Shown: positions 6,902 to 42,193 of the stretch, piece by piece
Layout of the letters: the number at the start of each line of letters is the position of its first letter
Numbering within the stretch: position 1 is the first letter of the stretch
Source of the DNA: Comamonas serinivorans
GTDB lineage: Bacteria; Pseudomonadota; Gammaproteobacteria; Burkholderiales; Burkholderiaceae_C
Assembly: GCF_002158865.1 (NCBI RefSeq)
Contig: NZ_CP021455.1
Coordinates: forward strand, 1,096,835-1,160,834
Length of the DNA: 64,000 bases
Direction of reading: 5' to 3'
Program-made: the position numbers and the translations under genes
Notes under the pieces: generated by a model
The model's database searches: none
What the model was told of the DNA's origin: nothing
Seen by the model: only the letters and a program-made list of their open reading frames with translations

Positions 6902-7753
6902 TCAGCGCCGCCGCATGGCCCAGCCGATGGGCACCACCGCCAGCGCCGCCACCGCGTGCTTGAGGCTGTGGCCGGCCACCCAGCCCTGGGTCAGCTCGAA
7001 CACGGCGTGGTCGCCCAGCTCCAGCACCTTGGCGGCGATGTAGGCCAGCACCACCCAAAGCCAGCGCACCCCCAGGCCGTCCGGCCGGTTGGGACTCAGG
7101 CCCAGACCCACCAGCAGCGCCAAGCCGGCGCCTTGCACCAGCGCCCAGGGCGTCATGTTGCCCACCTGCCAAGCCCACAGGGCCGCGCTGGCCGAGGCCA
7201 GCAGCAGCGGCAGCGGCAGCGCGCGACCCAGGCGGGGGCTCACGCGGTCGGCCACAGCCAGGCCGATCACGCCGGCAAAGGCCAGCGACATGCCGAGCCG
7301 GTCCACGGCCAGGCCCGCATCGCCGGGCGCCCAGTGGTAGACGCTGGAGCCCGCGGCCGTGGCGATCAGGCCCAGCACCACCCATCGCACGAGCACCATG
7401 CAAGTATGGTCGGCCATTCGATCATGGATGAAGGTAGATGAACCGATACCCGATGAAAAGATGGCGGCTCGCCGCCACAGCCACAGCGCCGCCAGGACGA
7501 ACGGTGCGTTGCTGAGCACGTCCAGGGCGTGCGGCAGTGCGCCCCAGGCGCGCTGGTCGGCGAAGTCGTGGTAGCCGGCGGGCAAGGGTGCGGCGGGCAG
7601 GCCGGCGGCCAGCACCACGGCGGCCAGCAAGGCCAGCAGCACGAGCCACTCGGCGCGGCGCAAGGGACCGAGGGCAGGGTGGGCGGGTTGGACGACGCCG
7701 GCCACGCCGGTAGACGGGGACGGGCGAGCGGCGGGCGGGCGAGCGTGTGGCAT
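6902..7753 (-). CDS. polytopic membrane protein, ceramidase (alkaline phytoceramidase)-like family
   Basis: YHDFADQR..G.P...DVLSN motif, several TM segments and SSVYHW/DRLGM motifs. Carries repeat copy R3 in frame (see findings). Confidence 0.5.
   Translation of the reverse strand: MPHARPPAARPSPSTGVAGVVQPAHPALGPLRRAEWLVLLALLAAVVLAAGLPAAPLPAGYHDFADQRAWGALPHALDVLSNAPFVLAALWLWRRAAIFSSGIGSSTFIHDRMADHTCMVLVRWVVLGLIATAAGSSVYHWAPGDAGLAVDRLGMSLAFAGVIGLAVADRVSPRLGRALPLPLLLASASAALWAWQVGNMTPWALVQGAGLALLVGLGLSPNRPDGLGVRWLWVVLAYIAAKVLELGDHAVFELTQGWVAGHSLKHAVAALAVVPIGWAMRRR
7403..7451. repeat. nested-palindrome repeat family, copy R3 (inside CDS 6902..7753)
   Basis: AGTATGG ... TTCGATCATGGATGAA ... CCGATACCC. 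Translated in frame as SGIGSSTFIHDRMADHTC. Locally AT-rich third positions. Confidence 0.6.
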
Positions 7754-27512: not shown

Positions 27513-27730
27513 GGCGAGGTCCTTGGCAAAAACCGACGGCTGACGAGGGACGGGCACGGCGGGCATGCCGTGCGCGGGTTCACTGCCCGGCCAGCTTTGC
27601 AAGCCTGGGCGGCCGAGGCTGTGCTTTAGGCGTCAGCGCAGGCCGCAGATGCCGTGCCTGGCCGGTGGCGAACGCCCGCCTGCGGCCGCGGAGCGCGCGG
27701 CGGCCAGGCGGACTAAAATCACCGGCTTCG

Positions 27731-27847
27731 CACCAAGGAGCGCTGCAGTTGGCCCAGGCCTTGCCTGGCCGGGCCTGTCAGGCTTGGTGCGGAACGTGTC
27801 GCGCCGGCCACGCCTGCGCTGGCGCGTGGTGTCAACGGCGCTCACCT
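27731..27847 (+). promoter_or_regulatory. SAH (S-adenosylhomocysteine) riboswitch in the metH leader
   Basis: CCAAGGAGCGCTGC (27733-27746) ... CAGGCTTGG (27779-27787) ... CAACGGCGCTCACC (27833-27846) match the conserved SAH-element cores (AGGAGCGCUGC / CAGGCUCGG / AACGGCGCUCAC). P1 is CCAAG/CTTGG and extra hairpins occupy the variable positions. CTCACCTG (27841-27848) can pair with CAGGTGAG (27872-27879), which contains the metH RBS. Confidence 0.75.
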
Positions 27848-27883
27848 GTTGTGTTGCTTGTCGGTTTTTTGCAGGTGAGTGTG

Positions 27884-30652
<2,769 letters not shown>

Positions 30653-30722: not shown

Positions 30723-31343
30723 TCAATCGCTGCGGCCGAATCCGGCGACAGGGTGTCGCAGGCGATCGTGGCGGTAGTCCTCGGCGACCTGTGCCCGCAG
30801 CACCTGCCAGTGCGCGCGGGACACATGCTGGCCCAGCGGCTGCCAGGCCGGGTAAGGGTTGTAGACCGCCACGTCGTCGGGGTACAGAAACGGCTGGAAC
30901 TTGAACGGGATGGGCAGCTGCGGTGCGGGCCCCAGGTTCAGCAGGGCCAGCAGACGCGCACAGCGGCCGCGAATGCGCTGCCAGTGTTCGCCCTCCACAA
31001 AGCCGCGGTGCGAGGTGTGCCAGGCCAGCTCGCGCACCACCTCGCGTTTCAAGGCTGGCGGAAAACGGTGCGCGTCGATCAGCCCATGCAGGCGCGGGTC
31101 GTCCAGCACGGCATCGGCCAGGTTCATCAGCTCGAAGTCCTGCAGCACCAGGGCGCAGAACAGCTGGTAGGCCGGGTTGCTGATGCGGTAGCCATGCTCC
31201 TCATCCAGCGTGATGGCGGCTTGGTGCGCGCCGGGGCTCACTGGCGTCAGCGTGCAGGTGTAGAAGTGCGCGAGCTGGGTGGCTGCTGGCAACTGGCCGA
31301 AGTGCAGCAACGCGTGCAGGTGGTTCAGGTCAAGCATCGGCAT
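30723..31343 (-). CDS. hypothetical protein (orphan, no recognised domain)
   Basis: 206-aa ORF, same strand and 77 nt downstream of the SPFH gene, with a 9-bp-stem hairpin (31379..31404) in the gap. Confidence 0.45.
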   Translation of the reverse strand: MPMLDLNHLHALLHFGQLPAATQLAHFYTCTLTPVSPGAHQAAITLDEEHGYRISNPAYQLFCALVLQDFELMNLADAVLDDPRLHGLIDAHRFPPALKREVVRELAWHTSHRGFVEGEHWQRIRGRCARLLALLNLGPAPQLPIPFKFQPFLYPDDVAVYNPYPAWQPLGQHVSRAHWQVLRAQVAEDYRHDRLRHPVAGFGRSD

Positions 31344-31420
31344 CCCCAGTCAGCGTCGCGCACAAAGCGTGGCAACTTGAGCGGCACGGTTCACGGTGCC
31401 GCTCATCCAGTGCTCGGCGC

Positions 31421-32581
31421 TCACCCTGGCTGGCGCAGCGTCACCAGGCCGTTCAGCACCTGATCGAGCCCGCCGACGACGGAGATCTTGTCGATGCGCT
31501 CGGCCACGCGCTCCAGCGTTTCCAGCTCCTTCATGCGCAGGGCGACGGGGTTGCCCTCCATCACCTTGGCGGTGTTCAACAGCGAACGCGTGGCCGCCGT
31601 TTCCTCGCGGCGGCGGATCACGTTGGCCTGGGCCGACTTTTCGGCCTCCACGACCTGGGCGAGGATGGTCTTCATCTCGCCGGGCAGGATGATGTCTTTC
31701 ACGCCCACGCTGTCCAGCGCCACGCCCGATTCAGCCAGGCGCTCGCGCACCTGGGCCAGCACGGCGCCATCGATGGCGGCCTTGTTTTCCAGCAACGCAT
31801 CCAGGTTCTGTTCGCCCACGGCGGCGCGCAGGCCGAATTGCAGCTCGCGGTAGACGTGGTCGGCTGGCTTGGGCATGCGCGCCAGCGCGCGCTGCACGTC
31901 GGTGAAGTGCCACACGGCCGAGAGGTTCAGTCGCAGGCCCACCTTGTCACGGGTCAGGATTTCCTGGCCATTCACCTCGGCGATCTGCGCTCGCAGGTCC
32001 ACGGTGCTCACGCTCACCTGACGGTTGAAGCGCCAGAAGCCATGCACGCCTGCCGGCAGCAGCGCTTGCATCTGGCCGTCCAGCGTGAGCACGCCAGCGT
32101 GGAACTCGGGCACCTGCACCAGCAGCACGCCGTCCAGGCCGCGCACGGCGCGCGGGCGCAGTGCCACGCTGTGCAGCTTGGCCAGCAACTCGGCGGGCAG
32201 GCGCGCGTCGGCGCTCAGGTCGACCACGTCCACGCGCTGTTCGCGCAGGCCGCGCCAGAACAGCTGGCGCGTGGACGGCGGCAGGATCTCGACCAGCACG
32301 CCGTCTTCGTGGCGCAGGCCGACCTCGGTTTCGCCCAGCACCACCTGCACGAACTCGCGGGCCAGCAGGGCCGGCTCGTGGGCTACGAAGTAGTCGGCCA
32401 GCTCGTGCTCAAAGCGCGCCGGCGCGTCCGGTTTGCCCAGCGAAAAGCGTTCCAGCGTCACATCGTCCAGGCCTGTGAACACGCGGTGCTTGCCCGGGCC
32501 AAACAGGCCGGCGAAATCGCCATCGCGCAGCAGCAGCGCGCGTTCGTGCTTTTTGACGGTGAAAATGGTGAATCCCAGCAT
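31421..32581 (-). CDS. SPFH/Band-7 (slipin-like) domain protein without TM segment
   Basis: C-terminal half: VGVKDIILPGEMK.ILAQVVEAEK.AQANVIRRREETAATRSLLNTAK is typical SPFH plus coiled-coil. N-terminal ~180 aa form an extra beta-rich region. RBS GGGAGAG. Confidence 0.75.
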   Translation of the reverse strand: MLGFTIFTVKKHERALLLRDGDFAGLFGPGKHRVFTGLDDVTLERFSLGKPDAPARFEHELADYFVAHEPALLAREFVQVVLGETEVGLRHEDGVLVEILPPSTRQLFWRGLREQRVDVVDLSADARLPAELLAKLHSVALRPRAVRGLDGVLLVQVPEFHAGVLTLDGQMQALLPAGVHGFWRFNRQVSVSTVDLRAQIAEVNGQEILTRDKVGLRLNLSAVWHFTDVQRALARMPKPADHVYRELQFGLRAAVGEQNLDALLENKAAIDGAVLAQVRERLAESGVALDSVGVKDIILPGEMKTILAQVVEAEKSAQANVIRRREETAATRSLLNTAKVMEGNPVALRMKELETLERVAERIDKISVVGGLDQVLNGLVTLRQPG

Positions 32582-32608
32582 GTTGCTCTCCCGGTGTGTT
32601 GTTGGTCA

Positions 32609-32660
32609 TGGGTATGGCCGTGTCGTCATTGATGATCAGTCGCAAAAATTGCCATACCCA
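32609..32660. repeat. nested-palindrome repeat family, copy R14
   Basis: TGGGTATGGC / GCCATACCCA perfect 10-bp outer arms. Interior TCATTGATGA. Lies just upstream of the SPFH start. Confidence 0.8.
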
Positions 32661-32933
32661 AGTTCTGTTCAAGGTGCCCAGCTCGCACAGGCTGCGGGCG
32701 ATCGGCGGGGTGCCGGCGCGCGTGGTCGTGCTCCCGGTTGTGTTGCTGGCACTGGCCTGGGCCAGGTGCACGGCCGCACAACCGCGATGGCGGCTGGCGC
32801 GCCAGGCACCGAAGCGCGAGGCACAGGCAGCCTGTGCGGGCAAGGTGCGCCGGGCGGCAGGACCAAGCCATTCGCCAAGCGCCGCCTTGCCAGGGCGGGT
32901 GGGGCTTTCGCCCCCATCCAAGCGGTGCAAGCA

Positions 32934-33040
32934 CCGCGGCAATGGGCGGGAATCGAACCCGCAGCCGCCACCGAAGTCGCGGTGTTCAACCATGAACAAG
33001 TCTTGGACCGAAACCAAGCGTCACCTCAGCCCATCCGCGG
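32934..33040 (-). ncRNA. tRNA-like structured RNA 3 (canonical T-arm, extended bulged stem)
   Basis: Minus strand: closing stem CCGCGGATGG / CCAT-TG-CCGCGG and a canonical T-arm GCGGG-TTCGATT-CCCGC. Internal hairpins are CTTGG-TTTCGGT-CCAAG, TGTTCA-TGGT-TGAACA, and CCGCGAC-TTCG-GTGGCGG (UUCG tetraloop). It begins ~85 nt downstream of promoter P1. Confidence 0.55.
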
Positions 33041-33134
33041 CATACCGCCCACCCAAGAACGGGTCTGGCGGGCGGCACCGGGCCGCATGCATGCGGCACC
33101 TCGTGCGGATGACTGCGTCCGACAGCAGGTGTCT

Positions 33135-33150
33135 TGCAGACGCCGTGCCA
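33135..33150 (-). promoter_or_regulatory. sigma-54 promoter P1 (divergent from rtcR)
   Basis: Minus strand reads TGGCACGGCGTCTGCA, with GG and GC elements at the exact consensus spacing (TGGCAC-N5-TTGCW). Confidence 0.7.
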
Positions 33151-33280
33151 ACTTCCGGCCCAGGCCGTTTCCGCGTGGAGGCCGCTGCGCCAATGCCTTG
33201 ATTTGCAAGCGGTTCGGTGCCCCTGGCCCGCTGACCTGCGTGTCAGCGGGCGATCGTCGGTGTTTGCTAGACTGAGGACC

Positions 33281-33310
33281 CTTGATTCATCCGGCGCGTT
33301 CTTGATTCAG
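33281..33310 (+). promoter_or_regulatory. candidate UAS direct repeats CTTGATTCA x2 upstream of P1 / at rtcR start
   Basis: CTTGATTCATCC (33281-92) and CTTGATTCAG (33301-10), plus a related CTTGATTTGCAAG at 33197-33209. They lie 130-160 bp upstream of P1 on its template. Confidence 0.35.
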
Positions 33311-33312
33311 CC

Positions 33313-34965
33313 ATGAAACCCATTCACGTCATCACCTTCCTGGGCACCCAGCTGGACAGCGGCAACGGTGCCGGCCGCTGGGAGAAGTGGCGGCCCACCG
33401 TGGCGCTGACCCAGCACGAGGACATGGAGGTCGCGCGGCTGGACCTGCTGCTGACCGGGCCCAGCCACCGGGCGCTGGCCGAGCGCGTGCGCGCCGACAT
33501 CGGCACGGTGTCGCCCGCCACCGAGGTCGTGCTGCACGAGTTGGCCGTGGACGATCCCTGGGACTTCGACGTCGTCTACACGCAGCTGTTCGATTGGGCC
33601 CGCGCGCAGGCCTTCGATACCGAGGCCGCGCAGTACTGGGCGCACATCACCACCGGCACGCATGTGGCGCAGATCTGCCTGTTCCTGCTGACCGAGTCGC
33701 GCGTGCTGCCCGGGGTGCTGTGCCAGACCTCGCCGCCCAAGCGGCAGCGCGAGGGCGCGGCCGGTGCCTACACGCTGATCGACCTCGACCTCTCGCGCTA
33801 CGACGCCATCGCCCAGCGCCATGCGGCCGACCAGCGCGATGCAGTGGCCTTCCTGAAAAGCGGCATCGCCACGCGCAATGCGCGCTTCAACGCGCTCATC
33901 GACGAGGTCGAGCGCGTGGCCGTGCGCTCCACCGCGCCGGTGCTGTTCGTGGGGCCCACGGGCGCGGGCAAGTCCTTCCTGGCCCGGCGCATGCACGAGC
34001 TGAAGAAATCGCGCCACCAGATCAACGGCGCCTTCGTCGAAGTCAACTGCGCCACGCTGCGTGGCGACGGCGCGGCCTCGACGCTGTTCGGCCACAAGCG
34101 CGGTGCTTTCACCGGCGCCGCCACCGACCGGCCCGGCCTGCTGCGCGCCGCCGATGGTGGGCTGCTGTTCCTCGACGAAATCGGCGAGCTGGGGGCCGAC
34201 GAGCAGGCCATGCTGCTCATGGCCATCGAAGACAAGCGCTTCTACCCCCTGGGTTCGGACCGCGAGGTGACCAGCGACTTTCAGCTGGTGGCGGGCACCA
34301 ACCGCGACCTGCGCGCCGAGGTCGCCGCGGGGCGGTTTCGCGAAGACCTGTTCTCGCGCATCAACCTGTGGACCTACGAGCTGCCTGGCCTGGCGGGCCG
34401 GCCTGAGGACATCGAACCCAACGTCGACTACCTGCTCACCCGCCATGCGCAAGCCTCGCGCCGCGCGGCCCGCTTCAACGTCGAAGCGCGCCGCGCCTAC
34501 CTGCGCTTTGCGCAAAGCGGCGAAGCGCTGTGGCGCGGCAATTTCCGCGACCTGTATGCCAGCGTGACGCGCCTGGCGACCCTGGCCGAGGGCGGGCGCA
34601 TCACCGAGCCGCTGGTGGTGGCTGAGATCAAACGGCTGCGCTGGATGTGGACGCGCGACAGCGCGGTGGCGGCGCCCGGCGCGCGCGCCTCGGGGGGCTC
34701 GCCGGGGGCGATGGCGGTCGATGCGGCGAGCGTGGACCTGGCCGACTTCTACGACGAAGCGGCCCTGGAGCAGATCGACCTGTTCGACCGCGTGCAGCTG
34801 CAGGGCGTCATCGCGGTGTGCCAGCGCTCGCGCACGCTGTCGGACGCGGGGCGCCAGCTGTACCAGGCCTCGCGGGCGCAACGCGCGGCGTTGAACGATT
34901 CGGACCGCCTGCGCAAGTACCTGGCCAAGTTCAACCTGAGCTGGGACCGCGTCAGCACACGATGA
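33313..34965 (+). CDS. rtcR: sigma-54-dependent transcriptional regulator RtcR (CARF-AAA+-HTH)
   Basis: Collinear over the full length with E. coli RtcR as I recall it: WEKWRPTV N-terminal region, HITTGTHVAQICLFLL, GPTGAGKSFLARR, GAFTGA loop, FLDEIGELG, and C-terminal DRLRKYLAKF HTH. Confidence 0.85.
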   Translation: MKPIHVITFLGTQLDSGNGAGRWEKWRPTVALTQHEDMEVARLDLLLTGPSHRALAERVRADIGTVSPATEVVLHELAVDDPWDFDVVYTQLFDWARAQAFDTEAAQYWAHITTGTHVAQICLFLLTESRVLPGVLCQTSPPKRQREGAAGAYTLIDLDLSRYDAIAQRHAADQRDAVAFLKSGIATRNARFNALIDEVERVAVRSTAPVLFVGPTGAGKSFLARRMHELKKSRHQINGAFVEVNCATLRGDGAASTLFGHKRGAFTGAATDRPGLLRAADGGLLFLDEIGELGADEQAMLLMAIEDKRFYPLGSDREVTSDFQLVAGTNRDLRAEVAAGRFREDLFSRINLWTYELPGLAGRPEDIEPNVDYLLTRHAQASRRAARFNVEARRAYLRFAQSGEALWRGNFRDLYASVTRLATLAEGGRITEPLVVAEIKRLRWMWTRDSAVAAPGARASGGSPGAMAVDAASVDLADFYDEAALEQIDLFDRVQLQGVIAVCQRSRTLSDAGRQLYQASRAQRAALNDSDRLRKYLAKFNLSWDRVSTR

Positions 34966-35019: not shown

Positions 35020-35133
35020 AAGGCTAAGCATTCCACAATGGGATGATCAACAGCGCGCCCGCCGGCTTGCACGGTGGGGCGCATGCAGCGGCTGGCCCAA
35101 GGCCGGGTGCACGACATGGAGAGGGAGACGCAC

Positions 35134-35802
35134 ATGGCGCAGTACATCGAGGTCATTGGACAGGCCAGCGTGAGCGAAGTGGCCGTGGAGCAGCGCGTGG
35201 CGCTGACGGTGTCGCACCGCGGCAAGGGCGGTGGCATGTCGGACAAGGTGGTGGCGCACAAGGCCACGCAGCAGCGTGAGCGGGTGATCGCCACGCTGCT
35301 GGCCCACGGCATGCGGGAGCACGAATTGCATGAGGGCGGCATGGACAGCGGCACCTGGCACTTCAAGCGCAAGCGCGAGGTGCACCACAGCCACCGCATC
35401 CTGCTGATCTGCGAGGACGACGCGCGCCTGTTTGCGGCCCTCGAGGCCCTGGCGCCGCTGCAGGACGAGGGCGAGCTTGACTTGCAACTGGACATGCTGG
35501 ACGCCCGCTACGAGGTGCCGGCCGGTGCGCTGAGCGGGGCGCAGCAGGCGGCGGTGGCGCATGCCCGTGAGCATGCGAATGGCCTGGCGCAGGCTGCCGG
35601 CGTGGCGCTGGGCGCGGTGGTGCAGGTGCAAGAGCTGGCGCCGGCGCGGGAGCGTTCGGGTGCCTATGGCGAGTCCTGGTATGGCTTGGCCGCCGCAGGC
35701 GGCGCGGCTGCGGCACCGGCCATGACCCTCTTGGCGAGTAACCAGCGCACGCGCACCTTGAGCTACCGCGTGCGCTTTGCGCTGCAGCGGGCTGTGCCCT
35801 GA
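35134..35802 (+). CDS. SIMPL (DUF541)-like protein, no signal peptide
   Basis: YIEVIGQASVSEVAVEQRVALTV...A...A...A..LAQAAGVALGAVVQVQE pattern. RBS GGAGAGGGAG lies 6 nt upstream of the ATG at 35134. Confidence 0.55.
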   Translation: MAQYIEVIGQASVSEVAVEQRVALTVSHRGKGGGMSDKVVAHKATQQRERVIATLLAHGMREHELHEGGMDSGTWHFKRKREVHHSHRILLICEDDARLFAALEALAPLQDEGELDLQLDMLDARYEVPAGALSGAQQAAVAHAREHANGLAQAAGVALGAVVQVQELAPARERSGAYGESWYGLAAAGGAAAAPAMTLLASNQRTRTLSYRVRFALQRAVP

Positions 35803-35883
35803 CGCGCGTCGTTCGCCGCAACGCCTGGGCCGCGGTGGCCTGAATGTCGGTCCGACCGTGCACTGGGCAGGACGTGGGGCCAG

Positions 35884-35916
35884 TGAATCGCCTGCAACGC
35901 CCCTGCAGACGATTCA
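35884..35916 (+). promoter_or_regulatory. candidate enhancer (UAS) inverted repeat upstream of P2
   Basis: TGAATCG-N19-CGATTCA lies 110-140 bp upstream of P2. It shares the GATTCA core with sites upstream of P1 and P3. Confidence 0.35.
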
Positions 35917-36025
35917 TGGGCGGGCGTAGAGTTCGCATCGAAAGCGATACAGTGGGATCGTGTTCGGCGGTCATGGTGGCGTGCAGCCCTGCTGTCGCCC
36001 TGGGGTGAAGCGGGATGGGCCGAAC

Positions 36026-36041
36026 TGGCACGGCCGTTGCG
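36026..36041 (+). promoter_or_regulatory. sigma-54 promoter P2
   Basis: TGGCACGGCCGTTGCG is a perfect TGGCAC-N5-TTGC. The predicted start lies a few nt before the stem of tRNA-like RNA 1 (36059). Confidence 0.75.
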
Positions 36042-36058
36042 AAGGATGAGGTGAACGT

Positions 36059-36146
36059 GGGCCCAGGTCTGGGGTGGCGCAAAGCGAGCGCGTCGGACTT
36101 GAATCCGAAGGGTGCTGGTGCAAGTCCAGCCCCCAGACCTGGGCCC
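36059..36146 (+). ncRNA. tRNA-like / Y-RNA-like cloverleaf RNA 1
   Basis: Perfect 16-bp stem GGGCCCAGGTCTGGGG (36059-74) / CCCCAGACCTGGGCCC (36131-46). It encloses TG, D-like arm GCGC-AAAGCGA-GCGC, G, anticodon-like arm TCGGA-CTTGAA-TCCGA, AGGGT, and T-like arm GCTGG-TGCAAGT-CCAGC. There is no CCA end. Confidence 0.65.
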
Positions 36147-36292
36147 GCGAAACCCGGGGGCGCGACGGCGCGAGGCAGGCCTTGACGCGGCGGCCGTGTC
36201 GGCAAGGGTGCAGCGAGAAGCGGCTACCAGGCCGGTTGCCACGCATCGCAGCCCGTCGGCCAGCCCGACCGGCAGGGGATGAGGTCAGGTGT

Positions 36293-36373
36293 GCAACGGT
36301 CTGGCGCAGTTCAAGGAGAACGCCCGACCATGCATCGGGAAGGTGCTGGACAAGCCAGCCGCCAGACCGTTGC
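36293..36373 (+). ncRNA. tRNA-like / Y-RNA-like cloverleaf RNA 2 (paralogue of RNA 1)
   Basis: Perfect 14-bp stem GCAACGGTCTGGCG / CGCCAGACCGTTGC. It encloses CA, GTTC-AAGGA-GAAC, G, CCCGA-CCATGCA-TCGGG, AAGGT and GCTGG-ACAAG-CCAGC. The topology matches RNA 1, with compensatory changes in the D-like and anticodon-like stems. Confidence 0.65.
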
Positions 36374-36422
36374 GCATGGGCCAGTCCCCGTCCCGATCCA
36401 CACGAACACAGGGAGAGCGGCC

Positions 36423-39320
36423 ATGGGCCAGCACGACGAAGAGCACTCACCGGACGCCGGTGAGCACCCGGTGCCGCCGGCGCATGCGGCATCCGGGCTT
36501 GCCCAGGCGAACCCGGGCTGGGCAGCCGGCCAGCTTGCACGCGCCCGTGCGGCTTTGGCACAGGCACAGGTACAGCGGGACCCGTCAGGGCCCGACGCGG
36601 CCGGCGCTGCGTCATCCGCGGATACCGACGCTGCAGGCCACGCCGTGGCGCGTGCGCTGGCCAAGGTGAATGCCTGGCGCCAGGCCTTGGCCGGCATGGC
36701 CAGTGGCGAGCTGCAGGTGGGGTCGCGCACGCCGCTGCGCAACGTGGCGGCCTGGCTCACGCCGAATGTGTTGCACGGCGGATTCGCCTCGGGCCAGCTG
36801 ATGGCCGGGGGGCGCGCGCAAGCACACGAGACGCACTGGCTGGCGCAACTGGCGGCCGGTCAGCCGCTGGGCAGCACGCCGACCGACTGTGCCCGGATGG
36901 CCACGCTGGCGGCACAGCCCGTGGACCGCAGCACGCTGCCCCAGAAGCTGGACCGCACGCCGCTGAACGACTGGTTCCTGACCGAGGCGGGCCTGCAGCA
37001 GCTGATGCAGTGGCTGGACGACGGCCGCTGGCGCATCGCCGTGCCCGAGGAGGGCGCCTTGCTGGTGGTGGCCTGGCTGCTGAGGCAGGGGCATGACACC
37101 TCGGCGGCCCGCCTGTTGGACACCCTGTCGCCCTACTGGCACCGCGTTCGCTTTTACCCGCAGCCCGCTGCGACGCCCATGCCGGCGCTCGACCGCGTGA
37201 GCCTGCGCAGCGCGCAGGACGTGATGGCGCAGTTGAACCAGCTGCAGACGCCGCCCGCGGTGCTGGCCCAGCACCAAGCCATCCACGTGTGGCGCCCCTT
37301 GCTCGACGAGCTGGTGCTGCTGTGGCTGCAGGCCGTGCCCGGCGCGCTGCACGGCCCTGACGCTGCCGCGGCCCATGGCGAATCCGGGCGAGGTGCCGAC
37401 GGCGCCGTGACGGATGCGCTGCCGCGCCTGCGTGCCGGCACGCGCGAGGCCGAAGGCGGCTTGCCCCTGGCCGAGCCCGACGCCGACTGGCGGCAGCAGG
37501 CGGCGGCCTGGCGCCTGCGGGCGCGCGAGGCCGAGGCGCAGCACACGCGCAGCCGGGCGCACCGCAAGCCCGGCTCGCACGTGGCGCAGTTGTGGGCCAT
37601 GCTGGACCAGGTGCTGCAAGGTCAGGCCCTGAGCGAGGCACAGCGCCGCCGGCTGCGCTTTGTGCTGGCGTGCCAGGTCAGCGCCCATGGCGTGCCAGGC
37701 GATGCGAGGCACCACACCTGGCGCGCCGCGCAACGGGCGCAGACCGACACCGTGTGGCGCGCCCACTGGGCGTACGCACTGGCCGCGCGCGTGCAGGCGC
37801 AGGGCCCCTACGCGCTGGGCGATGGCCTGCCGGATCTGGACACCGCGCTGCAAGCTGCCACGGCGCAAGAGGCACAACAACATGCGCACCTGCCCGAAGG
37901 CACCGTGGTCTGGCCCAGCCTGCGCCGCAAGCTGCGCCGCGCCCACTTGGCCACCGTGCCGCAGCTGGTGCAAGCCGGCATCGTGCCGTCGAGCGAGGTG
38001 CTGGCCAGCGTGCTGCCCGGCACCACGGGCGCACAGCTGGCGCGCACCATGCCCGATGCGGCCAGCGCGCGGCTGCTGGGCGCGCTGTGGCGTGCGTTTC
38101 GCGGGCGACGCTCGGTGCTGCTGCTGAACCACGAGTCGCAGGTGCGCTTTCACGAGCTGCCCTGGGTGCTGCGCTTGCAGCAGCACGCCTGCGTGCCGGC
38201 GACGGCCGCCGGGACCGAGGGCGATTCGGCACATCGCTGGGACATGGCCGGCCTGGCGCGCAGCCAGGCGTTGGCGCAGCTGGATGCGGCCGCGCGCCTG
38301 GCGCTGACGCAATTCCCGCAATCGGCCTTCCCGAACCCGCTGCTGTGGGAGCTTCGCGCGCTGGCCGAGCAGGGTGGCTGGCAGCCGCCGTGGGTCGAAG
38401 ACATCGCGGCCGACATCTTCATGGGCAGCTTTGGGCCCAAGTTCGGGCAGGCCGTGCACGACGCGCTGCCCTGGTTGCAGGGCAGCCTGTATGCGCAGCA
38501 TTTCCAGCTCGACCTGGAGGCGCTGCGCCTGGCCATGGCGCCGGCCGTGGCCTGCCACGCGGCCTTTCAGCGTTACGCCGAAACGCCAGCGGGCTCACCC
38601 GGCAACCCCGCGGCCAAGCGCGAACAACAGGCCTTGCTGCAGCGCTATCACGCGGCGCCCGACCTGCTGGTGGCGCACCTGCGTGCGCGCACGGGCTGGT
38701 CGGCCGACGCCCGCGGCGTGGGCGCGAATGGCGCCGTCATCGAGCAGATGGGCCTGGTCAGCACGGCCAACTTCGCGCCGCTGGCGCAGCGCTTTGGCTG
38801 GGGCGTGGCCGGTGCCGGTTTGCGCGATGCCACGGCCCAGGCGCGCGAGCTCCAGGGGTGGGCGCAGGCCGCACGCACGGGCTTCGAGCGGCTGTGCGCG
38901 GGGCTGGACCTGGGCGTGCGCGAAGCCGGCGCCATGCTGGACAAGCCGCCAACCCAGATCCAGGCGACAAACCCGGCGGATGCCCATGCGGCAGCGACAG
39001 AAGCCCAGGCCGCCGACCGCCTGCTGGCCGAGCGCGTGCGCCGGGCCGCCACCAGCTGGCGCCAGGTCGTGCTGCTGCTGAGCCTGCTGCCCGCCGAGCA
39101 GCAGCGCGCCAACCTGCTGGGCATGCAGCGCCACCTCGCGGCCTGTGACACCCCCGCCAGCCGGGGCGTGACGCGCGCCCTGGCGCCCCAGCTGGCCGAC
39201 CTGATGGCCTGTGTGCAAGGCCAGGCGCGCGACGCCGGTCGGCCACCGTTCCACGGCTGGACCCAGCCAGGGCAGCGGGGCGTGCTGTTCACCCTGCGCC
39301 AGGGCCTGAAGGCCGGGTGA
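36423..39320 (+). CDS. large orphan protein (965 aa), predicted all-alpha, no recognised domain
   Basis: Longest frame in the region. RBS GGGAGAG upstream of the ATG at 36423. Ala/Leu/Gln/Trp-rich composition, versus an Arg/Gly-rich antisense ORF. Lies downstream of sigma-54 promoter P2 and the two tRNA-like RNAs. Confidence 0.6.
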   Translation: MGQHDEEHSPDAGEHPVPPAHAASGLAQANPGWAAGQLARARAALAQAQVQRDPSGPDAAGAASSADTDAAGHAVARALAKVNAWRQALAGMASGELQVGSRTPLRNVAAWLTPNVLHGGFASGQLMAGGRAQAHETHWLAQLAAGQPLGSTPTDCARMATLAAQPVDRSTLPQKLDRTPLNDWFLTEAGLQQLMQWLDDGRWRIAVPEEGALLVVAWLLRQGHDTSAARLLDTLSPYWHRVRFYPQPAATPMPALDRVSLRSAQDVMAQLNQLQTPPAVLAQHQAIHVWRPLLDELVLLWLQAVPGALHGPDAAAAHGESGRGADGAVTDALPRLRAGTREAEGGLPLAEPDADWRQQAAAWRLRAREAEAQHTRSRAHRKPGSHVAQLWAMLDQVLQGQALSEAQRRRLRFVLACQVSAHGVPGDARHHTWRAAQRAQTDTVWRAHWAYALAARVQAQGPYALGDGLPDLDTALQAATAQEAQQHAHLPEGTVVWPSLRRKLRRAHLATVPQLVQAGIVPSSEVLASVLPGTTGAQLARTMPDAASARLLGALWRAFRGRRSVLLLNHESQVRFHELPWVLRLQQHACVPATAAGTEGDSAHRWDMAGLARSQALAQLDAAARLALTQFPQSAFPNPLLWELRALAEQGGWQPPWVEDIAADIFMGSFGPKFGQAVHDALPWLQGSLYAQHFQLDLEALRLAMAPAVACHAAFQRYAETPAGSPGNPAAKREQQALLQRYHAAPDLLVAHLRARTGWSADARGVGANGAVIEQMGLVSTANFAPLAQRFGWGVAGAGLRDATAQARELQGWAQAARTGFERLCAGLDLGVREAGAMLDKPPTQIQATNPADAHAAATEAQAADRLLAERVRRAATSWRQVVLLLSLLPAEQQRANLLGMQRHLAACDTPASRGVTRALAPQLADLMACVQGQARDAGRPPFHGWTQPGQRGVLFTLRQGLKAG

Positions 39321-39710
39321 GCAGGTCGGGTGAGGTCAGGTGAAGCCAGCGGGGCCATGGGGCCCCATCTTCCAGGTTGGCCCGAATGGTGACCGTGGGT
39401 CTGGGTGCCGGTGCTGCCGCCCCAGGCGTTCGCTGTGGGCGCCTGGCGGACTGGCGCCGAGGAACGGAGGAGCTTGCGCGACAATCCGGCATCCGGTCCG
39501 GGCGAGGCTCGCTAGGACATGGCCATGGCGCGCGGCGGTCAGCACGCGGCGGTGTCGGCCCCGCAGCCGCGCGATCCCGGTGGTCGGGTGCAAGTGCCCT
39601 GTCGGCTTGCGTTCCACGCCAACAGGCCTGCTGCCGTGCCTCGTGCCATGTCAACCGTTGCTTGACGGTCGGCGGGCCCCGTGCCCACGCCGTGTTGTTC
39701 AGAAGTACCC

Positions 39711-40454
39711 ATGCCTTTACGCATCGACGAAGCCATCACCCAGCTGGATCACGGCTGGCTCAGCCATTTGAAATCGCAGGGTTACGGCGGCGATGCCTTG
39801 CGCCAGGCGATCGACCTGGTGCTGTACGCCCAACAGCAGGCGGCGGCGCGCAACAGCGCCGAGTTCAAGGCCGCCATCGCGCGCGTCAACCACCTGGTGG
39901 GGGCGGGCATCGCGTGTGACAACAACGGCGACTACCTGTACACGGCCGAGTGGCGCGACCCGGCTTGCGCCGGGCTGGGCTTCGCCATCGAATACGCGGC
40001 CGACCCGGCCAGCTGGCGGGCCGAGTTCCGCATGCCCGGCTGCTGGCCGCACACCGTGGACAACCTCGACATCACCGACACCCGCGCTGTGGACCACGAC
40101 TTTGCGCTCTGGCTGGCGCGCGCCAGTGCCCGCCATTTCACGCACCTGATCGAACGCCAGCTGCCCGAAGGCGAAGCACTGCGCGCGCCCTGTACGGCGG
40201 CCGTGCGGGCCGGCACCTGGGCCGAATTCGTGTGCCTGCACCCACTGCAACCCGTGGCCCGCCTGGGGCACGAGCGGCTGGAGCAGGCCGCCTGGTCGGC
40301 CCAATACCCCAGTGCCGCCCAGCGCGAGTTGCAGGCCCGCTTCGATGTGCAGAGCGCCTTGCTGCTGCGCTTGATCGTGGTTCAGCAGGCAGCATGGGCT
40401 TGGCATGAAGAGTATGGCGACAATCGCGATGACGATTCAACGGGAAGGCATTGA
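39711..40454 (+). CDS. orphan protein (247 aa), no recognised domain
   Basis: ORF between the 965-aa gene and rtcA on the same strand. The last ~15 codons and the stop lie in repeat copy R16. Confidence 0.5.
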   Translation: MPLRIDEAITQLDHGWLSHLKSQGYGGDALRQAIDLVLYAQQQAAARNSAEFKAAIARVNHLVGAGIACDNNGDYLYTAEWRDPACAGLGFAIEYAADPASWRAEFRMPGCWPHTVDNLDITDTRAVDHDFALWLARASARHFTHLIERQLPEGEALRAPCTAAVRAGTWAEFVCLHPLQPVARLGHERLEQAAWSAQYPSAAQRELQARFDVQSALLLRLIVVQQAAWAWHEEYGDNRDDDSTGRH

Positions 40455-40460: not shown

Positions 40461-40814
40461 ATTTGATGTGGCGCTTGCTGAGGGCTGCTTGCCCGACACC
40501 GGAAGGCTGGCGTCGACGCAGGGACATGACGCGTGGCCAGCGGTGCATGGGCTCGCCAGCCGCCCGCACAGCGCCCCCAACCCGCTGACTGGGCGTCCTG
40601 ATGCAGCAGGCCTGGCTCGACCTGCCCGTGCTCTTTCGCCTGCATGCGCAGGCGCGTGGCCAACAGGTGGCGCAGCCCGAGCGGGCCGATGGGGTGTTCG
40701 CCATCCAGGGCACGGCCAGCGCGCAGCCTCACACCGTCCGAGACGGACCGCATCCGGGCCGATTGCCTGTGAAGGCGGGCTTGCAAGGGGCGCTGCATGG
40801 ATCGCTGGCGCGCT

Positions 40815-40828: not shown

Positions 40829-40934
40829 AGTTTGGCTTGCGGTGGCTGAGCCGTGGCGAGGCGCAGGCGCCCTCGACGCCAAGTGCTTGATCCGGCAAGG
40901 GTTTGCGCGGCTCGCCTGTTGATTTGGCGGGGCC

Positions 40935-40950
40935 TGGCACGCCGCGTGCA
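40935..40950 (+). promoter_or_regulatory. sigma-54 promoter P3 (rtcA)
   Basis: TGGCACGCCGCGTGCA has correct GG/GC spacing and lies 38 nt upstream of the rtcA ATG. Confidence 0.65.
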
Positions 40951-40987
40951 ACGAGGATGGCCACACACAACTCAACTGGGAGCACAC

Positions 40988-42193
40988 ATGCCAACCGACG
41001 ACCAGGTGGAGGCGAAGCCGCGTCACCGTGACCCAGCTCGCACGGCCACCGCCGCAGACACCAAAAGCGTGACCGGCGCAGCGCAGACGGGCCGTGGCGC
41101 AGCCATCGAGATCGATGGCTCGCAGGGCGAGGGCGGCGGGCAGATCCTGCGCACGGCGCTGGCCTTGTCCATGATCACCGGCCAGCCGCTGCACCTGCGC
41201 GCCATCCGCGCCAAGCGGCCCAAGCCCGGGCTCATGCGCCAGCACCTGATGTGCGTGCAGGCGGCCGCGCAGGTCAGCGGGGCCCACATCAGCGGGGCCG
41301 AGCTGGGGGCCACCGAGTTGCGCTTCGCGCCGGGCCCGGTGCGGGCGAGCGCCTACGAATTTGCCATGGCCAGCGCAGGCAGCTGCATGCTGGTGCTGCA
41401 GACCGTGCTGCCGGCGTTGATGCTGGCCGATGCCCCCAGCACGCTGGTGCTGCGGGGCGGCACGCACAACCCCATGGCGCCCAGCTTCCACTTTGTGCGC
41501 GATGCCTTTGCGCCGCTGGTGCAGCGCCTGGGCGCCGGCCTGACGCTGCAGCTGCAGCGGCTGGGCTTTTACCCCGCAGGCGGTGGCGAGGTCACGGCCA
41601 CCATCACGCCTGCGGCCCGCCTGACCCCGTTCGACCTGACCGAGCGTGGCGAGCTGCAGCAGGGCGATGCTCTGTGCCTGACGCCGGGGCTGTCGGGGTC
41701 GATCGCGCGCCGCGAGCTGACGGCGCTGGGCCAGGCCATGGGCTGGGGCGAGGACCGCTTGCGCTTTGGCGAGGCCAGGCAGCACGAGGGGCCGGGCAAT
41801 GCCTTGATCGCCCGCCTGCGCTACGCCCACGTGACCGAGGTGTTCGTCGAGCTTGGGGCCCGCAACCTGTCGTCGGAGCAGGTGGCCGGCAAGCTGGTGC
41901 AGGCCATCCGGGCGTTTCAACGCCGGCCAGGTGCCGCGGTGGGCCCACACTTGGCCGACCAGCTGGTGCTGCTGCAGGCCCTGGCCGTGTGGCAGGCCGG
42001 ACGGACCGGCAGCCAGGCGGATGCGCCCCACGCCGATGTGCCCCAGGCGGATGTGCCGCAAGCACGCTTCTCGTGCAGCGAGGTGACCGAGCACTTGCGC
42101 ACCAACTGCGTGGTGATCGAACGCTTTCTGCCCGTGCGCTGCACGCTGACCCAGGGCCCTGTGTCCCGGGTGACGGTGCGCTGGGCGGGGTGA
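40988..42193 (+). CDS. rtcA: RNA 3'-terminal phosphate cyclase RtcA
   Basis: IEIDGSQGEGGGQILRTALALS..TG.P..L..IRA.R..PGL..QHL. RBS GGGAG upstream of the ATG at 40988. N-terminal ~35-aa extension and a 15-nt x3 in-frame repeat near the C-terminus. Confidence 0.85.
   Translation: MPTDDQVEAKPRHRDPARTATAADTKSVTGAAQTGRGAAIEIDGSQGEGGGQILRTALALSMITGQPLHLRAIRAKRPKPGLMRQHLMCVQAAAQVSGAHISGAELGATELRFAPGPVRASAYEFAMASAGSCMLVLQTVLPALMLADAPSTLVLRGGTHNPMAPSFHFVRDAFAPLVQRLGAGLTLQLQRLGFYPAGGGEVTATITPAARLTPFDLTERGELQQGDALCLTPGLSGSIARRELTALGQAMGWGEDRLRFGEARQHEGPGNALIARLRYAHVTEVFVELGARNLSSEQVAGKLVQAIRAFQRRPGAAVGPHLADQLVLLQALAVWQAGRTGSQADAPHADVPQADVPQARFSCSEVTEHLRTNCVVIERFLPVRCTLTQGPVSRVTVRWAG
42017..42061 (+). 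repeat. 15-nt x3 in-frame tandem repeat inside rtcA
   Basis: GCGGATGCGCCCCAC / GCCGATGTGCCCCAG / GCGGATGTGCCGCAA, encoding ADAPH-ADVPQ-ADVPQ. Confidence 0.7.

What the first reader, a model, noticed from the sequence alone, without database searches (positions are those of the whole stretch)
30723..32581. Cytoplasmic SPFH protein plus orphan ORF as apparent RtcR/sigma-54 targets
Seen: the gene at the canonical RtcR-regulated position (divergent from rtcR, downstream of P1) is not rtcB. It encodes a 386-aa SPFH/Band-7 protein. This protein lacks the usual N-terminal membrane anchor and has an extra ~180-aa N-terminal beta-rich region. A 206-aa ORF with no recognisable domain follows. SPFH proteins are normally membrane-scaffold proteins partnered with NfeD-type proteases, and no such partner is present here. 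Inference: these are either an unrecognised component of the RNA-stress response or a case of promoter capture.
Basis: partly seen in the sequence, partly recalled or inferred. Interest (0 to 1): 0.5.

Follow-up and report, generated by a model that had tools for sequence, protein, structure and literature searches.

The report
Rtc-operon SPFH protein with tRNA-like leader
The SPFH gene beside rtcR is the already-predicted "Band-7 plus tRNA-like RNA" cofactor module of bacterial RNA-repair operons, here cut off from its usual RtcB ligase, and the 206-aa ORF behind it is most likely an unrelated stray toxin-immunity gene.

Summary
A 386-aa soluble SPFH protein (31421-32581, -) and a 206-aa ORF (30723-31343, -) lie divergent from a bona fide rtcR, behind a sigma-54 promoter (33135-33150, -). 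The promoter lies about 540 nt upstream of the SPFH start codon, and the leader between them is a conserved structured RNA with a tRNA-like module.

This SPFH family is not strain-specific. In 80 species loci, 53 have a divergent rtcR, 54 have rtcB directly downstream, and 71 have tRNA T-arm motifs just upstream. This is the "Band-7 + b7a-tRNA" module predicted by Burroughs & Aravind (2016). PA4582/PaFlo8 of P. aeruginosa is the SPFH protein described inside that species' rtc locus. The module's function is still untested.

What is unusual here is that rtcB is absent from the window. rtcA belongs to a second sigma-54 unit on the other side of rtcR.

ORF206 is a real but rare gene. Its relatives follow Rhs toxin genes, so it looks like an orphan immunity gene placed next to SPFH by rearrangement.

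The most novel item lies outside the finding. The second unit pairs tandem tRNA-like RNAs with an uncharacterised ~900-aa protein family, and this pairing recurs in distant phyla.

The parts
33135..33150 (-). Sigma-54 promoter P1 (TGGCACGGCGTCTGCA). The inferred transcription start is near 33124.
   Evidence: It is the only exact TGGCAC-N5-YTGCW match in the window. An equivalent site is invariant in close relatives. A similar site is present in 52 of 54 rtcR-linked leaders.
33190..33202 (-). ATCAAGGCATTGG motif about 40 nt upstream of P1. It is a candidate shared cis-element (RtcR or IHF site); its binding protein is not established.
   Evidence: There are only two exact matches in the window. 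The other lies about 44 nt upstream of P3 at 40879-40891.
32582..33124 (-). Leader RNA of about 543 nt between P1 and the SPFH start codon. It is non-coding and structured.
   Evidence: No codon-position GC signal. The fold z-score is -4.46. It is conserved with Variovorax and Xenophilus, and 19 of 88 predicted pairs show compensatory changes.
33027..33115 (-). 5' domain of the leader: an outer stem enclosing two GC-rich hairpins (33081-33100 and 33039-33079).
   Evidence: Consensus structure and coordinates. The motif CCGGTGC...YATGCCGC is found in 37 of 54 leaders.
33002..33018 (-). Hairpin CUUGGUUUCGGUCCAAG, a degenerate T-arm of the first tRNA-like module.
   Evidence: It aligns with a canonical GGTTCGAGTCC T-arm in Xenophilus.
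32938..33006 (-). tRNA-like module (b7a-tRNA type): D-like arm, anticodon-like arm capped by a UUCG tetraloop, and a canonical T-arm (32946-32962). The acceptor stem is broken.
   Evidence: Covariance model R1, built from 53 homologous tRNA-like modules, scores 27.4 bits, E 8e-6. The T-arm was also seen.
31421..32581 (-). Soluble SPFH/Band-7 ('slipin') protein, 386 aa. N-terminal beta-rich region 1 to ~185, SPFH domain ~186-300, helices 301-365.
   Evidence: dN/dS against Xenophilus is 0.15.
31379..31404 (-). GC-rich 9-bp hairpin just after the SPFH stop codon, with no U-tract.
   Evidence: Sequence, coordinates. A similar hairpin follows the SPFH gene in Xenophilus, where rtcB comes next. The terminator scan did not call it.
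30723..31343 (-). ORF206, a rare-family protein and predicted orphan immunity protein of an Rhs-type polymorphic toxin.
33313..34965 (+). rtcR, a sigma-54 activator with a CARF-type RtcR N-terminal domain.
   Evidence: Pfam RtcR plus Sigma54_activat. NCBIfam RNA_repair_RtcR at 788 bits.
36026..36041 (+). Sigma-54 promoter P2 (TGGCACGGCCGTTGCG), 42 nt upstream of a tRNA-like RNA.
   Evidence: Sites at the same position occur in L088 and L089.
36068..36138 (+). tRNA-like RNA of a second type, with a 6-nt 'anticodon' loop.
   Evidence: Rfam tRNA model at 52.8 bits. ARAGORN reports an undetermined anticodon. R1 scores 38.6 bits.
36300..36367 (+). Second tRNA-like RNA of the same type, with a shortened T-loop.
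   Evidence: R1 scores 24.8 bits, E 5e-5. The same tandem pair occurs in L088 and L089.
36423..39320 (+). Uncharacterised ~900-aa protein (CCO03_04750 family).
   Evidence: 39 homolog clusters. No Pfam or PDB relative.
39681..40454 (+). Uncharacterised ~250-aa protein that is conserved in the same operon in L088 and L089.
   Evidence: 68-80% identity by tblastn. Coding signature.
40589..40769 (+). 3' remnant of a ~730-aa gene that is intact in L088 and L089.
   Evidence: tblastn matches only the last ~60 residues.
40935..40950 (+). Sigma-54 promoter P3 (TGGCACGCCGCGTGCA) upstream of rtcA.
   Evidence: TGGCAC-N5-GTGCA occurs at the same position in L088 and L089.
40985..42193 (+). rtcA (RNA 3'-terminal phosphate cyclase).
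   Evidence: tblastn gives 61% identity to Variovorax RtcA. Pfam RTC matches at E 5e-74.

Best explanation
The 386-aa gene encodes the soluble SPFH/Band-7 protein that belongs to RtcR-controlled RNA-repair operons in Beta- and Gammaproteobacteria. Its RNA partner is encoded in its own ~540-nt leader, a structured RNA with a tRNA-like module (the 'b7a-tRNA' of Burroughs & Aravind).

Proposed sequence of events:
1. RtcR is activated. In Salmonella the signal is tRNA fragments ending in a 2',3'-cyclic phosphate. Transfer of that signal to this organism is inferred.
2. Sigma-54 RNA polymerase starts near 33124 and transcribes the leader RNA and then the SPFH gene. This step is inferred from the promoter motif and its conservation.
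3. The SPFH protein oligomerises through its C-terminal helices into a stomatin/HflK-like ring, but in the cytoplasm. Together with the tRNA-like RNA it acts as a scaffold or cofactor for handling damaged tRNA, analogous to Ro60 with Y RNA. This step is inferred and untested anywhere.

In most relatives rtcB and rtcA follow the SPFH gene directly. In this genome that part is missing. ORF206, a stray immunity-type gene of an Rhs toxin system, abuts the SPFH gene instead and is probably co-transcribed by read-through. rtcA is supplied by a second sigma-54 unit downstream of rtcR.
For: Identity of the protein:
- No transmembrane segment.

Conserved linkage:
- More than 564 species hold a relative. 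Of the best 80 loci, 53 have a divergent rtcR, 54 have rtcB within 900 nt downstream (65 somewhere in the locus), and 71 have at least one T-arm motif upstream.
- The closest relative, Xenophilus (86% identity), has rtcR<>Band_7-RtcB-RtcA.

RNA partner:
- ARAGORN and Rfam call one or two tRNA-like genes in 54 of 85 leaders. Their anticodons are unrelated or defective, and some loops are tetraloops.
- The cloverleaf is 97% paired, with covariation in 13 of 19 pairs.
- The window's leader is homologous, scores 27.4 bits with the model, and is more stable than shuffled sequences (z -4.46).

Promoter: conserved in 52 of 54 rtcR-linked leaders.

Selection: SPFH dN/dS is 0.15.

Loss of rtcB: no tblastn hit in the window.

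ORF206:
- No homolog in any SPFH locus.
- Homology to the nearest relative starts at about 31341, the ORF206 start.
- Homology to Xenophilus ends shortly after the SPFH stop codon.
- ORF206 relatives directly follow an Rhs C-terminal toxin domain in two independent loci and lie in Rhs-associated gene arrays in others.

Literature.
Against: - No expression data exist. RtcR dependence of P1 rests on position and motif only.
- The window's tRNA-like module is degenerate. The acceptor stem is broken, and neither ARAGORN nor the Rfam tRNA model detects it. It may not work like the better-formed copies.
- No RNA binding by any SPFH protein of this family has been shown.
- Deletion of the P. aeruginosa SPFH gene in the rtc locus (PaFlo8) gave no phenotype in standard assays.
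- Without rtcB in the window, the module's usual enzymatic partner may be absent, which could mean decay.
- The immunity assignment for ORF206 rests on gene neighbourhood in a handful of metagenomic contigs. Its structure model is unusable (pLDDT 42).
- The 80 loci are those most similar to the query, so the linkage figures describe Beta- and Gammaproteobacterial relatives, not the whole family.
Confidence: 0.7

Rival explanations
1. The tRNA-like leader acts in cis as a regulatory 5' UTR, not as a separate RNA partner of the protein. Possible roles are a processing site, an attenuator, or a sensor for tRNA-directed enzymes or nucleases that sets SPFH and rtcB expression.
For: The RNA always lies between the promoter and the SPFH start codon. 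About 230-390 nt of further leader follow it. No separate terminator was found after it in the window. Its position is fixed relative to the gene even where rtcR is replaced by an HNH gene.
Against: tRNA-like units are typical substrates for RNase P and RNase Z and would probably be released. Ro60 with Y RNA occupies the same operon position in other bacteria and acts in trans. In Variovorax a further tRNA-like element with a CCA end lies between the SPFH gene and rtcB. This explanation is not exclusive with the main one.
Confidence: 0.25
2. The SPFH unit here is a decaying remnant of a canonical rtcR<>SPFH-rtcB-rtcA operon and no longer has a function.
For: rtcB is absent from the window. The first tRNA-like module is reduced to a hairpin and the second has lost its acceptor stem. 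The neighbouring second operon also carries a deletion.
Against: The SPFH ORF is intact and under purifying selection (dN/dS 0.15). The promoter and leader are conserved. The same reduced leader type occurs in Variovorax and Xenophilus, which keep rtcB. At least ten other species have tRNA-like plus SPFH without an adjacent rtcB.
Confidence: 0.1
3. ORF206 is a functional member of the RtcR regulon. It would be an immunity-type protein recruited so that RNA damage caused by a toxin induces its own antidote.
For: It is 77 nt downstream of the SPFH gene on the same strand, with no canonical terminator between them. Many Rhs and CDI toxins are RNases (general knowledge). ORF206 relatives follow an Rhs toxin domain.
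Against: The arrangement is seen only here. Even the 96%-identical relative has different upstream DNA. dN/dS against that relative is 0.88, though on few substitutions. The activity of the cognate toxin domain is unknown, with no Pfam match.
Confidence: 0.15
4. The SPFH protein is an ordinary membrane-microdomain scaffold, and its position next to rtcR is incidental.
For: The SPFH core and C-terminal helices closely resemble the membrane cage formers stomatin, HflK/C and QmcA.
Against: It has no transmembrane or hydrophobic hairpin segment and no adjacent NfeD partner. Synteny with rtcR, rtcB and a tRNA-like RNA is conserved across two proteobacterial classes.
Confidence: 0.05

Closest known systems
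[quoted passage not shown] The P. aeruginosa protein PA4582 / PA14_60630 / PaFlo8 is described in the same rtc-locus position.
   Same: Same protein family by sequence: ~60% identity to the Pseudomonas- and Burkholderia-labelled loci in the set (P. aeruginosa itself was not among them) and 86% to Xenophilus. Same divergent rtcR, same sigma-54 promoter position, and the same tRNA-like RNA between promoter and gene.
   Different: No rtcB or rtcA follows the SPFH gene here. An unrelated ORF206 follows instead. The tRNA-like part is reduced to one recognisable module with a broken acceptor stem.
Rsr (Ro60) with YrlA/YrlB Y RNAs in the Salmonella rsr-yrlBA-rtcBA operon
   Same: An RtcR/sigma-54-controlled unit that pairs a non-enzymatic protein with a tRNA-mimicking non-coding RNA next to the RNA-repair enzymes. 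A close relative of this locus (L089, RtcR 85% identical) has Ro60 nearby instead of the SPFH protein.
   Different: The proteins are unrelated (TROVE/vWA versus SPFH). There is no Ro60 in the window. The order is reversed: the RNA precedes the protein gene here, whereas the operon name rsr-yrlBA-rtcBA places the Y RNA genes after rsr.
Membrane SPFH cages: stomatin, HflK/C-FtsH, QmcA-YbbJ (NfeD), prohibitin, flotillin
   Different: No membrane anchor and no NfeD or FtsH partner gene beside it. It has an extra ~185-residue beta-rich N-terminal region with no sequence match in the PDB.
Major vault protein with vault RNA
   Different: The match is far weaker than to stomatin-type proteins. Whether the N-terminal beta units correspond to vault repeats was not resolved. 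No evidence shows that this protein forms a closed shell.
Immunity proteins of Rhs/YD-repeat polymorphic toxin systems (for ORF206)
   Same: Relatives of ORF206 lie immediately after an Rhs C-terminal toxin domain in L102 and after an orphan copy of that domain in L107. Others lie in arrays of small genes next to Rhs genes.
   Different: In the window there is no Rhs gene or toxin domain next to it. It is a solitary copy between the SPFH gene and metH.

Membership tests
SPFH / Band-7 superfamily | SPFH domain recognisable by sequence profile | tested here: met
   Pfam PF01145 at E 1e-25, 91 bits against a cut-off of 23.6. The profile matches stomatin chains at E 6e-23.
SPFH / Band-7 superfamily | SPFH alpha/beta fold followed by an oligomerising helix | tested here: met
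Rtc-operon Band-7 + b7a-tRNA module | Protein orthologous to the Band-7 proteins encoded next to rtcB | tested here: met
   Full-length 55-86% identity to proteins that sit directly upstream of rtcB in 54 of 80 loci.
Rtc-operon Band-7 + b7a-tRNA module | tRNA-like RNA encoded next to the Band-7 gene | tested here: met
   Model R1 hit at 32938-33006 (27.4 bits, E 8e-6). The leader is homologous to those of relatives. The copy is divergent, with a broken acceptor stem.
Rtc-operon Band-7 + b7a-tRNA module | RtcB ligase encoded in the same unit | tested here: not met
   No tblastn hit to RtcB anywhere in the 64-kb window (best E 0.78). The rest of the genome could not be searched.
Rtc-operon Band-7 + b7a-tRNA module | RtcR/sigma-54-dependent transcription | not testable with these tools
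   The promoter motif and the divergent rtcR are present and conserved. Actual dependence needs expression data.
Classical membrane stomatin/NfeD pair | N-terminal membrane anchor or hydrophobic hairpin | tested here: not met
   The highest Kyte-Doolittle 19-residue window is 1.24. The N-terminus is beta-strand in the model.
Classical membrane stomatin/NfeD pair | Adjacent NfeD-family partner gene | tested here: not met
   The neighbours are ORF206 (no domain) and rtcR. The whole window was not scanned for NfeD.
Ro60 / Y RNA module | TROVE-domain protein | tested here: not met
   The Ro60 protein of L089 gives no tblastn hit in the window.
Authentic tRNA gene (for the leader element) | Intact cloverleaf with a 7-nt anticodon loop and a conserved anticodon identity | tested here: not met
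   Not detected by ARAGORN or by the Rfam tRNA model in the window. Across 53 homologous elements the 'anticodons' are all different, undetermined, or replaced by tetraloops.
Rhs polymorphic-toxin immunity protein (ORF206) | Encoded immediately downstream of the cognate toxin C-terminal domain | tested here: inconclusive
   Met for homologs in L102 and L107, which share a 56%-identical toxin domain. Not met in the window, where the copy is solitary.
Rhs polymorphic-toxin immunity protein (ORF206) | Neutralises the toxin | not testable with these tools
   Needs co-expression of ORF206 with the L102/L107 toxin domain.

The most novel reading that the evidence does not exclude
RtcR in this organism may control a regulon with no RtcB ligase, built from two different 'protein plus tRNA-like RNA' modules.

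The first is the predicted Band-7/b7a-tRNA pair, which would then work without RtcB. Supporting this, at least ten other species also keep that pair without an adjacent rtcB.

The second appears undescribed. A conserved sigma-54 promoter (36026) drives two tandem tRNA-like RNAs and an ~900-aa protein family with no detectable domain. That family carries a tRNA-like RNA directly upstream in Betaproteobacteria, Streptomyces and Planctomycetes. It sits beside RtcR and RtcA in L089, with RtcA also present in the L088 copy of the operon, and beside an RNA ligase plus kinase in Massilia. It would be a third kind of RNA-repair scaffold with its own cognate RNA, after Ro60/Y RNA and Band-7/b7a-tRNA.
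Probability: 0.3. Interest if true: 0.65.

Novelty: new member of a known kind. Interest (0 to 1): 0.3.

Why it matters
The role of the non-enzymatic partners in bacterial RNA-repair operons (Ro60 with Y RNA, Band-7 with tRNA-like RNA) is still unknown. This locus adds no new principle for the SPFH protein. It is, however, a natural case in which the SPFH protein and its tRNA-like RNA are kept under an RtcR-type promoter without RtcB. That argues the pair has a function of its own, and it offers a simple system for testing it.

The locus also shows that gene-by-gene reading misses the RNA partner, which was the key to identifying the module.

The neighbouring unit, which pairs tRNA-like RNAs with an uncharacterised ~900-aa protein across phyla, is the part most likely to be new biology.

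Tried and rejected
- **Inversion hypothesis.** I considered that one inversion moved rtcA to the far side of rtcR. I rejected it because rtcA belongs to a separate conserved operon, rtcR - tRNA-like x2 - ORF~900 - ORF~250-330 - ORF~730 - rtcA, seen in L088 and L089. The only inverted repeat at the junctions is 22 nt at 82% complementarity, among many such pairs.
- **rtcB remnants.** I searched downstream of the SPFH gene and across the whole window and found none.
- **Defence system.** PADLOC gave no match for the SPFH protein, ORF206, SIMPL or the large ORF.
- **Phage origin.** PHROGs gave nothing relevant.
- **Rfam.** No family other than generic tRNA or T-arm matches in the window or in 8 related loci.
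- **ORF206 structure.** The model is unusable (pLDDT 42), so no fold search was run.
- **ORF206 context from its closest relatives.** The contigs were too short. The metagenome scan was needed instead.
- **Sigma-70 promoter for the SPFH gene.** The only consensus-like site lies inside the coding region.
- **Original Burroughs & Aravind paper.** It is not held in the library, so its content is cited second-hand and from my own recollection of the abstract.
Full report
**1. What is in the window**

The window comes from Comamonas serinivorans. The SPFH protein is 100% identical to CCO03_04730. The local gene order is:

| Feature | Coordinates | Strand |
|---|---|---|
| metH | 27665-30652 | + |
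| ORF206 | 30723-31343 | - |
| SPFH gene | 31421-32581 | - |
| Intergenic region, 731 bp | 32582-33312 | |
| rtcR | 33313-34965 | + |
| SIMPL/DUF541 gene | 35074-35802 | + |
| Non-coding stretch | ~35803-36422 | |
| Large ORF | 36423-39320 | + |
| ~250-aa ORF | 39681-40454 | + |
| rtcA | ~40985-42193 | + |

Codon-position GC content shows that ORF206, the SPFH gene, rtcR, the large ORF and rtcA are real coding regions. It shows that 32582-33312 and 35800-36400 are not.

**2. Check of the observation**

- The 386-aa protein has a Band_7 domain (E 1e-25).
- It has no predicted transmembrane segment.
- In an AlphaFold2 model of reasonable confidence (pLDDT 80.6) it has a beta-rich N-terminal ~185 residues, an SPFH domain, and long C-terminal helices.
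- ORF206 has no match in Pfam, NCBIfam, PADLOC or PHROGs.
- rtcR is a confident equivalog match (788 bits).
- One exact sigma-54 site (TGGCACGGCGTCTGCA, 33135-33150, -) points at the SPFH gene.

**3.

The promoter lies 554 nt upstream of the SPFH start codon. The transcribed leader contains a perfect tRNA T-arm, GCGGGTTCGATTCCCGC, at 32946-32962.

Evidence from 80 species loci that encode a relative of the SPFH protein:
- 71 have at least one T-arm motif within 800 nt upstream of the gene.
- Among the 54 leaders that face rtcR, 53 have at least one T-arm and 43 have two, about 73 nt apart. 52 have a sigma-54 site about 185 nt upstream of the first T-arm. The typical leader is about 490 nt long.
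- ARAGORN and the Rfam tRNA model call one or two tRNA-like genes in 54 of 85 leaders.

These are not decoding tRNAs. The called "anticodons" include Thr, Ile, Phe, Lys, Asn, Glu, Arg, Pro, Val, Met, Ser, Gln, Leu and a stop anticodon. Many are undetermined, some loops are UUCG or GNRA tetraloops, and the acceptor stem is short and usually lacks CCA.

An alignment of 53 such modules is 97% paired in the cloverleaf. Changes on both sides occur in 13 of 19 pairs, far above the shuffled and slid controls. One caveat applies: the sequences were selected by ARAGORN, which favours cloverleaves.

A covariance model built from this alignment finds the window's leader copy at 32938-33006 (27.4 bits, E 8e-6).

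The window's leader aligns along its length with those of Variovorax and Xenophilus. It folds more stably than shuffled sequences (z -4.46). A five-sequence consensus structure has compensatory changes in 19 of 88 pairs.

In this lineage the first tRNA-like module is reduced to a hairpin (33002-33018). That hairpin aligns with a canonical T-arm in Xenophilus. The second module keeps its D-like, anticodon-like and T arms but has lost its acceptor stem. A conserved 5' domain (33027-33115) precedes both.

**4. The SPFH gene is a conserved member of Rtc operons**

- Of the 80 loci, 53 have a divergent rtcR at about 650-750 bp, 54 have rtcB directly downstream, and 44 have both.
- The genes that follow are RtcB, a treble-clef zinc-finger protein, RtcA and RlaP.
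- The closest relative (Xenophilus, 86% identity) has rtcR<>Band_7-RtcB-RtcA.

The association is already in the literature.
[quoted passage not shown] The module is described as interchangeable with Ro60/YrlA and as not validated experimentally.
- My own recollection of the 2016 abstract agrees: SPFH/Band-7 scaffolds with a novel tRNA-like molecule. I could not read the paper itself.
- P. aeruginosa PA4582 is listed as an rtc-operon gene of unknown function. A 2026 study names an SPFH protein embedded in the P. aeruginosa rtc locus (PA14_60630, PaFlo8) and finds no phenotype for its deletion in standard assays. That PA4582 and PaFlo8 are the same gene is my reading of the two papers, not a tool result.

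**5. What is unusual here**

There is no rtcB anywhere in the window. Homology to Xenophilus continues past the SPFH stop codon, through a GC-rich hairpin (31379-31404), and then ends.

The closest relative of ORF206 is a metagenomic contig (L086) with 96% nucleotide identity. It matches the window only from position 31341, the ORF206 start, through the ORF and on to the end of the contig, which falls in the last bases of the convergent metH gene. Its upstream DNA is unrelated. A recombination junction therefore lies in the 77-bp spacer between the SPFH gene and ORF206.

The SPFH gene itself is under purifying selection (dN/dS 0.15). At least ten other species keep the tRNA-like plus SPFH pair with no adjacent rtcB, often with an HNH gene upstream instead of rtcR. 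The pair is therefore probably a functional unit in its own right.

**6. ORF206**

ORF206 is a real gene.
- It has a coding signature.
- dN/dS is 0.3-0.4 against homologs at 57-58% identity.
- It carries many invariant residues.

The family is very small: 3 clusters by word-indexed search and about 20 representatives in an exhaustive profile search. None of the 80 SPFH loci has it.

A metagenome scan found 13 loci. In several of them the gene lies in a run of small co-directional genes behind RHS/YD-shell proteins. Two loci are informative.
- In L102 it directly follows, and overlaps, a 1133-aa Rhs protein.
- The C-terminal 180 residues of that Rhs protein are 56% identical to a free-standing 182-aa ORF in L107. 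An ORF206-type gene immediately follows that ORF too.

A variable C-terminal toxin domain followed by its partner gene is the signature of toxin and immunity pairs in polymorphic toxin systems (general knowledge of these systems). I therefore assign ORF206 as a solitary "orphan" immunity-type gene, with moderate confidence.

No canonical terminator separates it from the SPFH gene. Read-through from P1 is therefore plausible but unproven.

**7. The other side of rtcR (outside the finding)**

A perfect sigma-54 site, P2 (TGGCACGGCCGTTGC, 36026), lies 42 nt upstream of a tRNA-like element at 36068-36138. A second, similar element lies at 36300-36367. Both precede the large ORF.

A third site, P3 (TGGCACGCCGCGTGCA, 40935), precedes rtcA.

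Two metagenomic contigs show the same order with the same P2 and P3 sites: rtcR, two tRNA-like RNAs, ORF~900, ORF~250-330, ORF~730, rtcA. They are L088 (whose fetched stretch starts just downstream of where rtcR would lie) and L089 (RtcR 85% identical). In the window only the last ~60 codons of the ~730-aa gene survive.

The ~900-aa family has 39 clusters and no Pfam or PDB relative. A tRNA-like element lies immediately upstream of its gene in several distant lineages.
- Massilia, where the locus sits beside an RNA ligase (PF09414) and an AAA_33 kinase.
- Streptomyces.
- A planctomycete, which has two copies.
- One further locus (L095) has none.

The exact motif ATCAAG-N3-TTGG occurs only twice in the window, about 40 nt upstream of P1 and about 44 nt upstream of P3. 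This hints at a shared regulator site.

**8. Mechanism, and how sure each step is**

Shown by sequence and comparison:
- the identity of the protein family;
- its conserved linkage to rtcR, rtcB and a tRNA-like RNA;
- the conserved sigma-54 promoter;
- the loss of rtcB from this unit;
- the foreign origin of ORF206.

Inferred from established knowledge:
- RtcR activation by tRNA fragments with cyclic phosphate ends (Salmonella);
- ring or cage assembly of the SPFH protein through its C-terminal helices, by analogy with stomatin, HflK/C and QmcA.

Hypothesis only:
- the protein and the tRNA-like RNA form a cytoplasmic ribonucleoprotein that recruits, shields or presents damaged tRNA, as proposed for Ro60/Y RNA.

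The RNA could instead, or in addition, act in cis.

**9. Verdict**

The finding is real and correctly described, but it is an instance of a module predicted in 2016. The "orphan ORF" is best explained by accidental juxtaposition.

Interest is modest for the finding itself. It is higher for the neighbouring module that pairs tRNA-like RNAs with the ~900-aa protein, which deserves its own follow-up.

Noticed in passing
window 36026-39320 (+); also L088, L089/L090, L091/L092, L093, L094: A conserved sigma-54 promoter (36026) drives two tandem tRNA-like RNAs (36068-36138 and 36300-36367) and an ~900-aa protein with no Pfam or PDB relative. Homologs of this protein in Massilia, Streptomyces and a planctomycete also have a tRNA-like element immediately upstream. 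In Betaproteobacteria the unit sits between rtcR and rtcA, and in Massilia it sits beside an RNA ligase plus kinase.
   Followed up: partly
window 40589-40769 (+): Only the last ~60 codons remain of a ~730-aa gene that is intact between the ~250-aa gene and rtcA in L088 and L089. By eye, the C-terminal region of the intact protein looks TerD-like. This was not tested.
   Followed up: partly
window 40935-40950 (+): A third sigma-54-type site (TGGCACGCCGCGTGCA) lies about 35 nt upstream of the rtcA start codon. TGGCAC-N5-GTGCA occurs at the same position in L088 and L089.
   Followed up: partly
window 33190-33202 (-) and 40879-40891 (-): The motif ATCAAG-N3-TTGG has only two exact matches in the window. 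Each lies 40-45 nt upstream of a sigma-54 promoter (P1 and P3). It is a possible shared regulator or IHF site.
   Followed up: partly
L001 about 7379-7420 (Variovorax boronicumulans): A further tRNA-like 3' half, ending in ...GGTTCGAATCCCGCCGTGTCCACCA with a CCA end, lies between the SPFH gene and rtcB.
   Followed up: no
L005, L006, L008, L009, L011, L012, L014, L016, L021, L029, L034, L035, L040: In about 13 loci an HNH endonuclease gene, on the same strand, replaces rtcR upstream of the tRNA-like RNA and the SPFH gene. Several of these loci have no rtcB nearby.
   Followed up: partly
L089 1548-1767 (-) and 2351-3919 (-): The close relative of this locus (RtcR 85% identical) has a Ro60 (TROVE/vWA) gene with T-arm-containing elements beside it, and no SPFH gene in the fetched 18.5-kb stretch. 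This fits the idea that Ro60/Y RNA and Band-7/tRNA-like RNA replace each other.
   Followed up: no
L102 927-4328 and L107 5413-5961: An Rhs C-terminal domain of ~180 aa, with motifs MYRMDHHP and YHHHV and no Pfam match, is the likely cognate toxin of the ORF206 family. Its activity is unknown.
   Followed up: partly
window 35074-35802 (+): A SIMPL/DUF541 gene sits between rtcR and promoter P2. It is absent from that position in L089.
   Followed up: no
L086 1-562: The DNA upstream of the 96%-identical ORF206 copy is unrelated to the window. By eye it contains two T-arm-like motifs (GGTTCGAATCC and GGTTCGACTTCC). ARAGORN finds no tRNA there.
   Followed up: no
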